NCBI GenBank assembly: GCA_039794845.1
Contig: JAUQVK010000048.1
Location: forward strand, 1 to 19,007
DNA length: 19,007 nucleotides
DNA from: Thermostichus sp. DRC_bins_24
Lineage (GTDB): Bacteria; Cyanobacteriota; Cyanobacteriia; Thermostichales; Thermostichaceae
Direction: 5' to 3'
Translations under genes and position numbers: made by a program
Notes under the pieces: generated by a model
The model's database searches: none
What the model saw: only the letters and a program-made list of their open reading frames with translations
Told to the model about the DNA's origin: nothing
In this document: positions 13,292 to 13,967 of the stretch, piece after piece
How the letters are laid out: every line of letters starts with the position of its first letter
Position numbering within the stretch: the first letter of the stretch is position 1

Positions 13292-13720
13292 ATGCAAACC
13301 TTACCTTCCAACGCTACAGATGCCACCCTGACCCGGCGGGTTTTGGTGGTGGATGATGAAGACGATATCCGCGAGGTGGCACAGCTCAGCCTGGAAATTA
13401 TGGCCGGCTGGGAAGTATGGAGTGCGCCCTCTGGAGAAGAAGGGATCCGCATTGCCGAAACTGCGCAGCCGGATGTGATCCTGTTGGATGTGATGATGCC
13501 GGATATGGATGGCCCCACCACCTTCCAGAAGCTCCGCGCCAACCCGAAAACCCGCGATATCCCCGTGATTTTGCTCACCGCTAAGGTGCGCGCACGCCTG
13601 GTGAAGCAGCAGTTTTTGCCCTTGGGGGTGCGGGGAGTGATTACCAAACCCTTCGATGCGACAAAATTGGCGGATCAGGTGGCCGAGACGGTGGGTTGGG
13701 ATCCCTTGGAGTTAAGCTGA
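13292..13720 (+). CDS. Single-domain CheY-like response regulator (RcaF-like)
   Basis: VLVVDDEDD, ILLDVMMPDMDG (phospho-Asp), LLTAK, ITKPF; ATG at 13292, 25 bp after the kinase stop. Confidence 0.93.
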   Translation: MQTLPSNATDATLTRRVLVVDDEDDIREVAQLSLEIMAGWEVWSAPSGEEGIRIAETAQPDVILLDVMMPDMDGPTTFQKLRANPKTRDIPVILLTAKVRARLVKQQFLPLGVRGVITKPFDATKLADQVAETVGWDPLELS

Positions 13721-13908
13721 GGGAAAGTGAGCACAAAAAAAGCAGGGTTGGCTTGACCCTGCCCCGAAGATGGGGAGTGCTCCCCCTGTCGCAGCCGCCG
13801 CATCAGGGCGCGATTGCGTTTGTCCAGTTGGCGCTTGCGAGCCGTTCCCCCGCGTCCACGTCGGTTTCTGCCCTGTTGGCGGGGGGATTCATGAGATTTC
13901 AGCAGCAT
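13675..13908 (-). CDS. Small Arg-rich protein with an internal terminator; candidate ArfA-type alternative ribosome-rescue factor
   Basis: ATG preceded by AAGGGG SD-like sequence; candidate promoter; 15 K/R in the first 40 aa; RRGRGGT motif; terminator at codons 49-58; hydrophobic FFVLTF tail. Function is inferred. Confidence 0.6.
   Translation of the reverse strand: MLLKSHESPRQQGRNRRGRGGTARKRQLDKRNRALMRRLRQGEHSPSSGQGQANPAFFVLTFPQLNSKGSQPTVSAT
13735..13762 (-). terminator. Rho-independent terminator on the minus strand, inside the small ORF
   Basis: Minus strand reads GCAGGGT-CAAGCCA-ACCCTGC-TTTTTTT (7-bp stem, 7-nt loop, 7 U). Confidence 0.8.
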
Positions 13909-13938
13909 GGGATCCCCTTGGTGAATGAACCTCAGTCC

Positions 13939-13967
13939 ATCCTACTCACAACCTGGGTGACTGACAG
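13939..13967 (-). promoter_or_regulatory. Candidate sigma70 promoter for the small Arg-rich ORF
   Basis: Minus strand CTGTCA (13967-13962) - 17 bp - TAGGAT (13944-13939). Confidence 0.4.

What the first reader, a model, noticed from the sequence alone, without database searches (positions are those of the whole stretch)
13675..13967. Candidate cyanobacterial ArfA/BrfA-type ribosome-rescue factor made from a built-in non-stop mRNA
Seen: the gap between two convergent genes holds a compact minus-strand unit: candidate promoter CTGTCA-17-TAGGAT, SD-like AAGGGG, ATG at 13908, then MLLKSHESPRQQGRNRRGRGGTARKRQLDKRNRALMRRLR (15 K/R in 40 aa). A clear intrinsic terminator (GCAGGGT-CAAGCCA-ACCCTGC-U7, 13762-13735) lies in codons 49-58, about 57 nt before the first in-frame stop. 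That stop only occurs in antisense overlap with the neighbouring receiver gene. A terminated transcript would therefore lack a stop codon, and read-through would add a hydrophobic FFVLTF tail. Established: E. coli arfA and Bacillus subtilis brfA are small basic proteins expressed from stop-less mRNA (RNase III cleavage and/or an internal terminator). They are tmRNA-tagged and degraded unless trans-translation fails. ArfA uses a KKGKGS motif in the ribosomal mRNA channel. Inference: RRGRGGT is the analogous motif, and this gene is a release-factor-recruiting backup rescue factor, or at least a trans-translation-sensing protein. I know of no characterised factor of this type in cyanobacteria.
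Basis: partly seen in the sequence, partly recalled or inferred. Interest (0 to 1): 0.9.

Follow-up and report, generated by a model that had tools for sequence, protein, structure and literature searches.

The report
Cyanobacterial stop-less small basic protein gene
A tiny, very basic protein gene found across cyanobacteria has a transcription terminator built in before any stop codon, the same trick that two known back-up ribosome-rescue factors use, so it is a strong candidate for such a factor in this phylum.

Summary
ORF 13908..13675(-) is a real gene. Its first 42 codons are conserved across cyanobacteria: 3053 protein clusters and at least 328 genomic stretches. The third-codon-position pattern is clearly that of a coding sequence.

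In 79 of 81 loci examined, window included, a hairpin plus U-tract lies inside the reading frame, with no stop codon before it. After the U-tract the sequence, the frame and the stop position drift freely. Two loci (L003, L009) instead have a stop right after the 44-residue core.

No Pfam, NCBIfam, PDB or Rfam match exists. Comparison with ArfA finds only a 14-residue motif likeness, GRNxKGKGGSAR against KNKKGKGSYMRK (hhalign probability 1.3%).

So this is not an ArfA or BrfA homologue. It is a new, phylum-wide family with the same gene architecture. The best reading is a protein held down by trans-translation that acts as a release-factor-dependent back-up rescue factor. The architecture is shown here; tagging, ribosome binding and release-factor recruitment are inferred. 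Seven full-text searches found no description of it. Interest is high.

The parts
13962..13967 (-). -35-like hexamer CTGTCA (weak)
   Evidence: Read from the sequence. It matches TTGACA at 4 of 6 positions, was not called by the scan and is not conserved in L004.
13939..13944 (-). -10-like hexamer TAGGAT, the likely own promoter of the unit
   Evidence: Read from the sequence. It is invariant between the window and Thermostichus locus L004 while its flanks diverge. In other lineages a -10 sits at a comparable place: a perfect TATAAT occurs at -65..-18 in 14 of 80 loci, against 1-2 of 80 in control windows.
13914..13919 (-). Shine-Dalgarno-like AAGGGG, 5 nt before the ATG
   Evidence: GAGG/AGGA-type purine runs precede the ATG in most of the 36 upstream regions printed.
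13783..13908 (-). Conserved coding core, codons 1-42 (MLLKSHESPRQQGRNRRGRGGTARKRQLDKRNRALMRRLRQG)
   Evidence: Alignments A1, A2 and A3 show invariant K4 E7 S8 P9 R10 G13 R14 N15 G18 G20 A23 Q27 K30. Entropy by codon position is 0.61/0.39/1.40 bits. Differing codon pairs are 20527 synonymous against 11982 non-synonymous in frame, and 2355/30364 and 1508/30808 out of frame. AF2 predicts coil for residues 1-22 and a helix for 23-42.
13763..13782 (-). Variable polar linker (codons 43-49), kept in frame and free of stops
   Evidence: Sequence and length vary. A 9-nt in-frame indel separates the window from L004. There are no stops in frame 0 between the core and the U-tract in 78 of 78 loci.
13742..13762 (-). 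Terminator hairpin: 7-bp G+C-rich stem, 7-nt loop, inside codons 49-56
   Evidence: stem free energy -10.6 kcal/mol. The stem is identical in L004 with loop changes. All 50 non-redundant loci have a hairpin here, each with a different sequence.
13735..13741 (-). U-tract (T7), read as Phe57-Phe58; expected 3' end of the mRNA
   Evidence: It accounts for the conserved 'P-x-F-F' in the protein alignments.
13675..13734 (-). Non-conserved read-through tail and first in-frame stop (TGA 13677-13675), antisense to the 3' end of the receiver gene
   Evidence: Tails differ in sequence, length and frame among relatives. After the U-tract, the window and L004 differ by T7 against T6 and by 1-nt indels.

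Best explanation
This is a real, translated small gene that belongs to a previously unnamed family found across cyanobacteria.

**The protein.** The working product is a core of about 42-44 residues, rich in K/R. It has an N-terminal coil (LKxW/HESPRxxGRNxKGKGG) and one basic helix (residues 23-42).

**The mRNA.** An intrinsic terminator lies inside the reading frame, about 185 nt after the ATG and before any stop codon. The normal mRNA is therefore a non-stop mRNA.

**Proposed regulation.** Ribosomes run to its 3' end. While tmRNA-SmpB is working, the product of about 58-64 residues is tagged and degraded. When trans-translation is saturated or lost, the product accumulates.

**Proposed action.** By analogy with ArfA (E. 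coli) and BrfA (B. subtilis), the accumulated protein would bind the empty mRNA channel and decoding centre of ribosomes stalled on truncated mRNA, using its basic segment. It would then recruit a class-I release factor to free the peptide.

**Shown here:** the gene is real and the protein is under selection; the hairpin plus U-tract is conserved inside the frame; no stop precedes it; sequence and frame decay after it.

**Inferred:** the 3' end of the transcript, tmRNA tagging, ribosome binding and release-factor recruitment.
For: **1. The gene is real.**
- 20 relatives of the window protein share an almost invariant 40-residue N-terminus.
- 229 representative clusters at 50% identity match at E<=1e-3.
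- 3053 clusters at 90% identity match the profile.
- Among 51 non-redundant loci, third-position entropy is 1.40 bits against 0.61 and 0.39. Synonymous changes make up 63% of differing codon pairs in frame, against 7% and 5% in the other two frames.

**2. The non-stop layout is conserved.**
- A hairpin plus U-tract lies inside the ORF with no earlier stop in 78 loci by script (77 loci plus the window; L027 is still open at its contig end), and in L030 by eye. That is 79 of 81.
- The background density of such sites is 0.70 per kb, which predicts about 4 of 50 loci with one in a 120-nt window. All 50 non-redundant loci have one, though these were picked from the loci where the script had already found a terminator. 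In 46 of them the stem free energy is -10 kcal/mol or lower, and all 50 hairpin sequences differ.
- The U-tract starts at a median of +185 nt (IQR 181-192).

**3. The tail is not coding.** Tails differ in length and sequence. After the U-tract, the window and L004 differ by 1-nt indels, whereas the linker indel is 9 nt and in frame.

**4. The core alone is enough.** L003 and L009 end with a stop after 44 residues.

**5. Precedent.** brfA has an intrinsic terminator inside its coding region, its product is SsrA-tagged, and it accumulates in a smpB deletion strain. ArfA is likewise made from non-stop mRNA (PMC6881298, passages read).

**6. Motif.** GRNxKGKGGSAR aligns with ArfA KNKKGKGSYMRK. ArfT was recognised partly through a similar KKGGSTNKK stretch, and KGKGS binds the mRNA channel (PMC6299226, passages).

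**7. An empty niche.** A survey of 162 Cyanobacteriota/Melainabacteria genomes found arfA in 0 and arfB in 90 (PMC11633108, Table 1).

**8. Link to translation genes.** tRNA-Leu(CAA) lies upstream on the same strand in 47 of 80 loci, and within 60 nt in 26 of them.
Against: - No transcript, protein or biochemical data were available, so every functional step is by analogy.
- There is no detectable homology to ArfA: Pfam PF03889 gave no hit at E<=1 for the window protein or any of the 67 members of A2, and hhalign probability was 1.3-1.5%. No PDB chain matched either.
- The motif likeness is 14 columns of low-complexity basic sequence.
- The AF2 monomer model shows no beta-strand like the one ArfA and BrfA use to dock on RF2. 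A monomer model could not show an induced strand, so this is weak evidence.
- Two of 81 loci have a stop before the terminator, so the non-stop control is not obligatory. A few short database proteins (P0021 and P0115, 43 aa each) may be further cases.
- The +1 frame is also stop-free across the linker in 66 of 78 loci. The open frame alone is therefore weaker evidence than it looks; the comparison with the +2 frame (14 of 78) and the coding core carry more weight.
- The same survey found arfB in 90 of 162 cyanobacterial genomes and rqcH in 161 of 162, so the need for another back-up is not self-evident.
- The efficiency of the terminator is unknown. A closely following ribosome could suppress it.
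Confidence: 0.55

Rival explanations
1. The gene is made from non-stop mRNA and is controlled by trans-translation, as above, but the accumulated protein does something other than recruit a release factor. It could silence or hibernate ribosomes, act as an RNA chaperone or RNA-binding regulator, or signal translation stress.
For: The architecture argues only for coupling to trans-translation, not for a particular activity. A basic helix could bind any RNA. No homology to a known rescue factor was found. Cyanobacteria already carry arfB (90 of 162 genomes) and rqcH (161 of 162).
Against: The only characterised proteins with this gene design, ArfA and BrfA, are both release-factor-dependent rescue factors. 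The motif resembles the ArfA/ArfT channel-binding stretch. The core is tiny (44 residues) and invariant at many non-basic positions (E7 S8 P9 N15 G18 G20 A23 Q27), which suggests a specific docking surface rather than general RNA binding.
Confidence: 0.25
2. It is an ordinary small basic protein, for example one associated with the ribosome or with nucleic acids. The terminator is leaky or merely overlaps the 3' end, and the protein is made with a normal stop from read-through transcripts.
For: L003 and L009 encode the core with a normal stop. Every ORF does reach a stop 9-169 nt after the U-tract. The +1 frame is also mostly open (66 of 78), so composition helps to keep the linker free of stops.
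Against: Tails are not conserved in sequence, length or frame. There is no stop in frame 0 before the U-tract in 78 of 78 loci, against 14 of 78 in the +2 frame. Strong hairpins (median -14 kcal/mol) followed by 5-8 T in the next 8 nt are typical of efficient terminators.
Confidence: 0.1
3. The ORF is a leader peptide. The hairpin is a translation-sensitive attenuator that controls downstream genes.
For: A ribosome translating through the hairpin would melt it, which is the geometry of classical attenuators (inference). In Nostocales a tRNA-Gln or a WecG-type glycosyltransferase gene follows on the same strand.
Against: In the window the next gene is convergent, so there is nothing to regulate. 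Downstream genes differ between lineages. Leader peptides are not conserved over 42 residues with a purifying-selection signature.
Confidence: 0.04
4. The ORF is a chance open frame in a G+C-rich spacer, and the hairpin is only the terminator of the upstream RNase_H_2/HhH nuclease gene.
For: This hairpin is the only terminator-like site between the nuclease stop (13985) and the receiver gene, so nuclease transcripts probably end there too.
Against: The conservation across the phylum and the codon-position signature are incompatible with a chance frame. The unit keeps its layout next to quite different neighbours.
Confidence: 0.01

Closest known systems
BrfA (YqkK) of Bacillus subtilis, an RF2-dependent alternative ribosome-rescue factor
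   Same: It is a small basic protein. A rho-independent terminator sits inside the coding region, so the mRNA lacks a stop (brfA: 71 codons, product about 62 aa; here: 77 codons, product about 58 aa). A few unconserved codons follow the U-tract. The product is expected to be SsrA-tagged (PMC6881298 passages).
   Different: No sequence match was found: the profile search against PDB chains gave nothing at E<=10. BrfA has two N-terminal helices, a beta-strand and a C-terminal helix, whereas this protein is predicted as a coil plus one helix. BrfA is limited to part of the Bacillaceae; this family spans the cyanobacteria. Function here is untested.
ArfA (Pfam PF03889) of beta- and gamma-proteobacteria
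   Same: It is made from a stop-less mRNA and repressed by trans-translation. It has a K/R-rich segment with a G-K-G motif: ArfA KNKKGKGSYMRK against GRNxKGKGGSAR here. The active form is about 52-55 residues.
   Different: This family does not match PF03889 at E<=1, and hhalign probability is 1.3%. In ArfA the motif lies in the C-terminal half; here it lies in the N-terminal half, followed by a helix.
ArfT of Francisella tularensis
   Same: It is a very small protein (40 aa) with a KKGGSTNKK stretch resembling the KGKGG(S/T)AR here. It was recognised as an ArfA analogue without homology (PMC6299226 passages).
   Different: No ArfT sequence was in hand, so no direct comparison was made. The passages read for ArfT mention no non-stop mRNA design. 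ArfT is confined to Francisella.
C-terminal tails of SmpB and ArfB
   Same: These are positively charged segments that probe the empty mRNA channel (statements in PMC6299226 and PMC6881298).
   Different: They are parts of larger folded proteins with their own tRNA-like or GGQ domains. The protein here has no GGQ motif (sequence).

Membership tests
ArfA (Pfam PF03889) | Sequence matches the ArfA family profile | tested here: not met
   No PF03889 hit at E<=1 for P0001 or for any of the 67 members of A2. hhalign of A3 against E. coli ArfA, and against a 12-sequence ArfA alignment, gave probabilities of 1.5% and 1.3% over 14 columns only.
ArfA (Pfam PF03889) | mRNA ends before any stop codon because of a hairpin inside the ORF | tested here: met
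   At the sequence level only. Hairpin plus U-tract lies before the first in-frame stop in 79 of 81 loci. Transcript ends were not measurable here.
ArfA (Pfam PF03889) | Conserved KGKGS-type basic motif that lies in the mRNA channel | tested here: inconclusive
   A similar motif, N-x-K-G-(K/R)-G-G-(S/T)-A-R, is nearly invariant and aligns with KNKKGKGSYMRK, but the match carries no statistical weight. Its position on the ribosome is unknown.
ArfA / BrfA / ArfT (release-factor-dependent rescue factors as a functional class) | Recruits RF2 (or RF1) to non-stop ribosomes and triggers peptidyl-tRNA hydrolysis | not testable with these tools
A biochemical assay is needed.
ArfA / BrfA / ArfT (functional class) | Synthetic lethality or sickness with loss of ssrA/smpB | not testable with these tools
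   A genetic experiment is needed.
BrfA (B. subtilis YqkK family) | Sequence relationship to BrfA | tested here: not met
   The profile of A1 against all PDB chain sequences gave one noise hit at E=2.4 and nothing else. BrfA was solved by cryo-EM, so I presume its chain is in that set but did not verify this. NCBIfam gave no family.
BrfA (B. subtilis YqkK family) | Rho-independent terminator within the coding region, a few codons before the stop | tested here: met
   In the window, the hairpin is at 13762-13742, T7 at 13741-13735 and the stop at 13677-13675.
BrfA (B. subtilis YqkK family) | Fold: N-terminal helices alpha1/alpha2, a beta-strand, a C-terminal helix and a basic tail | tested here: not met
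   The AF2 model shows coil at residues 1-22, one helix at 23-42 and a disordered tail (mean pLDDT 71.7). Foldseek against the PDB gave no match at E<=0.001.
ArfT (Francisella) | Sequence relationship to ArfT | not tested
   No ArfT sequence was obtained from a tool. Only the motif quoted in PMC6299226 was compared by eye.
Leader peptide / transcription attenuator | A co-oriented downstream gene whose expression the terminator gates | tested here: not met
   In the window the next gene, the receiver ending at 13720, is convergent. Downstream genes are not conserved across lineages.

The most novel reading that the evidence does not exclude
This is a fourth, independently evolved family of release-factor-dependent alternative ribosome-rescue factors. 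It is ancient and phylum-wide in cyanobacteria, from early-branching Thermostichus to Nostocales. It is self-regulated through a built-in non-stop mRNA. In many lineages it is transcribed as a tail on tRNA-Leu(CAA), so its supply would follow tRNA transcription. It would be the first ArfA/BrfA-type factor known in oxygenic phototrophs.
Probability: 0.5. Interest if true: 0.9.

Novelty: new variant of a known kind. Interest (0 to 1): 0.85.

Why it matters
Release-factor-dependent back-up rescue factors are known only from some proteobacteria (ArfA, ArfT) and some Bacillaceae (BrfA). The authors of the BrfA paper predicted that many bacteria hold unidentified ones (PMC6881298 abstract). A survey of 162 cyanobacterial genomes found no arfA.

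If this family is such a factor, three things follow:
- It fills that gap for a whole phylum of major primary producers.
- It gives a third independent case of the non-stop-mRNA feedback design.
- It shows that a conserved small ORF with an internal terminator and no stop is a usable search signature for further factors.

The hypothesis is directly testable in standard model cyanobacteria. The family is annotated only as 'hypothetical protein', or not at all, in the 120 database entries listed.

Tried and rejected
- **Rfam.** At gathering thresholds it finds only the rRNA operon and two tRNAs in the window. A permissive scan of 13600-14100 gave one meaningless hit at E=1.7. The region is therefore not a known RNA family.
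- **Pfam and NCBIfam.** No family at E<=1 or E<=10. Only scattered noise appeared, for example DUF4202 in 7 of 67 members (best E 0.028) and YjdP in 3 of 21 (E 0.37).
- **PDB by profile, and Foldseek of the AF2 model.** Nothing.
- **ESM Atlas.** Only cyanobacterial 'hypothetical protein' clusters, at scores of 0.87-0.89.
- **Folding 81 nt around the hairpin.** No more stable than shuffles (z = -0.62). The local hairpin, not the wider region, is the signal.
- **RNAalifold on 31 hairpin regions.** It returned no consensus pairs, because MAFFT could not put hairpins of different sequence and length in register. I therefore report no covariation count. Each sequence folds on its own.
- **Synteny.** An M48 peptidase, an EPSP synthase, an FMN-dependent dehydrogenase and a WecG glycosyltransferase recur near the gene in Nostocales and some other orders, but not in the window. 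None points to a function.
- **The listing of cluster members.** The database was switched off, so gene names in model strains were not obtained.
- **Literature.** Seven full-text searches and passages of seven papers gave no description of such a cyanobacterial gene. bioRxiv supplements are closed, and I opened no supplementary files of the PubMed Central papers either, so a listing of this ORF in a supplementary table cannot be excluded.
- **Not checked.** The closed metagenome and viral collections were not searched. Whether picocyanobacteria, Gloeobacter, Synechocystis 6803 or plastids carry the gene stayed unchecked, because only the best 80 of at least 328 loci were returned.
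Full report
**1. The observation**

- CTGTCA lies at 13967-13962, followed by a 17-nt spacer and TAGGAT at 13944-13939.
- AAGGGG lies at 13919-13914, and the ATG at 13908.
- The ORF has 77 codons and ends with TGA at 13677-13675.
- There are 15 K/R among the first 40 residues.
- The hairpin is GCAGGGT / CAAGCCA / ACCCTGC (13762-13742), followed by T7 (13741-13735). It occupies codons 49-58, 57 nt before the stop.

The terminator scan reports this hairpin as the only terminator-like site in 13200-14400. It reports no sigma-70-like promoter, because the two hexamers match only 8 of 12 positions.

The neighbours are as follows:
- an RNase_H_2 (PF13482) plus helix-hairpin-helix protein at 13985-15556(-);
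- a convergent single-domain response-regulator gene ending at 13720(+);
- upstream of that, a GAF-PAS histidine kinase at 11002-13266(+).

The last 46 nt of the nominal ORF overlap the receiver gene in antisense.

**2. Is it a gene?**

Yes. Four searches agree on a large family.
- The word-indexed protein search found 20 relatives of the window protein (21 listed at E<=10, one being the query itself). These come from Thermostichus and other cyanobacteria.
- The exhaustive search of representatives at 50% identity found 229 clusters at E<=1e-3. The match was at or close to the proteins' N-terminus in most of the 150 listed.
- A profile of 53 members found 3053 clusters at 90% identity.
Of these, 328 were confirmed by tblastn and the best 80 were fetched.

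The 80 loci come from Thermostichus, Pseudanabaenales, Leptolyngbyales, Nodosilinea, Oscillatoriales, Spirulina, Chroococcales, Pleurocapsales, Chamaesiphon, Chroococcidiopsis and many Nostocales. Three MAGs are labelled as non-cyanobacterial (L010, L050, L078). Their loci resemble cyanobacterial ones: the hairpins of L050 and L078 sit at the same positions as those of Nostocales loci, and the L010 protein is close to that of Limnothrix L016. I take these to be binning errors, which is an inference.

The consensus is M(xx)RLK(R/S)(W/H)ESPRxxGRNxKG(K/R)GG(S/T)ARxRQLKKxxxxLRxKLK. Invariant positions are K4 E7 S8 P9 R10 G13 R14 N15 G18 G20 A23 Q27 K30.

Over the 38 ungapped core codons of 51 non-redundant loci:
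- entropy is 0.61, 0.39 and 1.40 bits at codon positions 1, 2 and 3;
- differing codon pairs are synonymous 20527 times and non-synonymous 11982 times in this frame;
- in the other two frames the counts are 2355/30364 and 1508/30808.

This is the signature of a translated sequence under purifying selection.

**3. The built-in non-stop design is conserved**

For each of the 80 loci and the window, a script located the start codon, the first in-frame stop and the first hairpin plus U-tract.
- In 76 loci and the window, the U-tract precedes the stop.
- In L027 the frame is still open through the terminator when the contig ends.
- In L030 my criterion missed a clear hairpin followed by TTTATTTTTT, which also precedes the stop.

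The total is therefore 79 of 81.

The two exceptions are informative. L003 and L009 end with TAA directly after a 44-residue core. L009 has its hairpin plus T6 after the stop; L003 has a hairpin without a U-tract. The 44-residue core is thus a complete functional unit, and the non-stop control can be lost.

Controls:
- Between the end of the core and the U-tract, no stops occur in frame 0 in 78 of 78 loci, in frame +1 in 66 of 78 and in frame +2 in 14 of 78. Among non-redundant loci the counts are 51/51, 39/51 and 14/51. The purine-rich linker keeps the +1 frame open as well, so this control is only moderately strong.
- By the same criteria, terminator-like sites occur at 0.70 per kb in the rest of these loci (382 in 548,624 nt). 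That predicts about 4 of 50 loci with one in a 120-nt window, whereas all 50 have one. These 50 were picked from the loci where the script had found a terminator.
- In 46 of the 50 the stem free energy is -10 kcal/mol or lower (median -14.0). All 50 hairpin sequences differ.
- The U-tract begins at a median of +185 nt (IQR 181-192), so the products would be about 60-67 residues in most loci, and 58 in the window.
- The conserved 'P-x-F-F' in protein alignments is simply the 3' arm and U-tract read in frame.

After the U-tract nothing is conserved. Tails vary from a few residues to about 100. Between the window and the Thermostichus locus L004, the linker differs by a 9-nt in-frame indel and the stem is identical. 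The region after the hairpin differs by T7 against T6 and by single-base indels, so the tails are read in different frames.

**4. Expression signals**

The -10 TAGGAT is invariant between the window and L004, while the -35 is not. Across the family there appear to be two arrangements.
- *Own promoter.* A perfect TATAAT lies at -65..-18 in 14 of 80 loci, against 1, 1, 2 and 2 of 80 in four control windows. Several of these are extended -10 or full TTGACA-17-TATAAT promoters.
- *Co-transcription with a tRNA.* tRNA-Leu(CAA) lies on the same strand upstream in 47 of 80 loci. Its 3' end is 21-60 nt from the ATG in 26 of them, which leaves no room for a promoter and implies co-transcription and processing. 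The window has no such tRNA.

A purine-rich Shine-Dalgarno sequence precedes the ATG in most of the upstream regions printed.

**5. What the protein looks like**

AF2 with the 53-sequence alignment gives a mean pLDDT of 71.7. It predicts a coil for residues 1-22 (pLDDT about 65-76), one helix for residues 23-42 (85-91) and a disordered tail.
- No solved structure resembles it.
- The family profile matches no PDB chain sequence.
- There is no GGQ motif, so it cannot hydrolyse peptidyl-tRNA itself.

**6. Comparison with known factors**

E. coli arfA was taken from the annotated MG1655 record. hhalign of the family against ArfA, alone or as a 12-sequence alignment, aligns only qGRNdKGrGGSARq with VEKNKKGKGSYMRK. 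The probabilities are 1.5% and 1.3%. PF03889 matches no member. The family is therefore not ArfA by descent as far as can be detected.

Functionally, the closest parallel is BrfA.
- The passages I read in PMC6881298 describe a rho-independent terminator inside the 71-codon brfA ORF.
- They describe a product of about 62 residues that is SsrA-tagged and seen only in smpB-deleted cells.
- They describe a positively charged C-terminal part in the mRNA channel, and a beta-strand that docks on RF2.

PMC6299226 (passages) states that KGKGS of ArfA binds the empty mRNA channel. It also states that ArfT was spotted partly through a similar KKGGSTNKK stretch.

Table 1 of PMC11633108 lists, for 162 Cyanobacteriota/Melainabacteria genomes: smpB 161, ssrA 155, arfB 90, arfA 0, rqcH 161.

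**7. Mechanism proposed**

*Shown here:*
- a conserved translated core;
- an internal terminator before any stop;
- decay of sequence and frame after it.

*Inferred:*
- transcripts end in the U-tract (I recall that cyanobacteria lack Rho and rely on intrinsic terminators; this was not checked here);
- ribosomes stall at the 3' end;
- tmRNA-SmpB tags the product for degradation;
- when trans-translation is limiting, the untagged product accumulates, binds vacant-channel ribosomes through the GRNxKGKGGSAR-helix segment and recruits RF2 or RF1.

I put 0.55 on the full chain, about 0.8 on control by trans-translation and about 0.9 on the non-stop architecture being real and selected.

*Rivals:*
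- the same control with a different activity (0.25);
- an ordinary small basic protein made from read-through transcripts (0.10);
- a leader peptide or attenuator (0.04), contradicted by the convergent downstream gene in the window;
- a chance ORF (0.01), refuted.

**8. Novelty**

All named database entries among the 120 listed are 'hypothetical' or 'uncharacterized', apart from one stray JGI label, and none carries a Pfam domain. Seven full-text searches found no cyanobacterial factor of this type. The kind of system is known, namely a rescue factor encoded on a non-stop mRNA. The protein family, its phylum-wide spread and the tRNA-linked expression are new. I file it as a new variant of a known kind.

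**9. Limits**
- The consensus-structure attempt failed for alignment reasons.
- Only the best 80 of at least 328 loci were seen, and they are rich in Nostocales. Redundancy was reduced to 51 by 8-mer sharing.
bioRxiv supplements were closed, and I opened no supplementary files of the PubMed Central papers.

Noticed in passing
L-loci, e.g. L018:2884-2968, L022:2884-2965, L028:2883-2967, L075:2889-2970: tRNA-Leu(CAA) lies on the same strand upstream of the small gene in 47 of 80 loci, and ends only 21-60 nt before the ATG in 26 of them. This suggests a tRNA-mRNA co-transcript. tRNA-Gln(UUG) follows downstream on the same strand in 16 of 80 loci. The window has neither.
   Followed up: partly
window, 20 sites, e.g. 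13909-13916 and 13698-13705: The palindrome GGGATCCC occurs 20 times in 19 kb, against 0.55 expected from shuffles. It behaves like a highly iterated palindrome of this genome. One copy sits between the Shine-Dalgarno sequence and the ATG of the small gene.
   Followed up: partly
L003:3001-3135 and L009:229-363: Two relatives carry a normal TAA stop right after a 44-residue core, so they would express the protein constitutively. They are natural variants useful for defining the minimal protein.
   Followed up: partly
L002, L006, L014, L017, L019, L022, L025, L028, L032, L037, L057, L063, L075 and others (upstream 0.1-3 kb): A Peptidase_M48 gene precedes the small gene on the same strand in 26 loci, often with an EPSP synthase gene before it. 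This holds across several cyanobacterial orders but not in the window.
   Followed up: partly
window 3260-8390 (+): A complete rRNA operon: 16S, tRNA-Ile(GAT), tRNA-Ala(TGC), 23S and 5S.
   Followed up: no
window 8674-13720: A cluster of signalling genes: a 633-aa protein with two receiver domains, an OmpR-type output domain and an Hpt domain (8674-10575, -); a GAF-PAS-PAS histidine kinase (11002-13266, +); and a stand-alone receiver gene that ends at 13720 (+).
   Followed up: no
window 13742-13762, + strand: Read on the + strand, the same hairpin lies 22 nt after the receiver gene's stop. It is preceded by A7 and not followed by a T-tract. It may serve weakly as that gene's terminator too.
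   Followed up: no
L010, L050, L078: Three MAGs labelled Sphingobacterium, Alphaproteobacteria and Acetobacteraceae carry loci that look cyanobacterial. L050 and L078 have tRNA-Leu(CAA) and hairpins at the same positions as Nostocales loci. The L010 protein is close to that of Limnothrix L016. These are probably binning errors.
   Followed up: no
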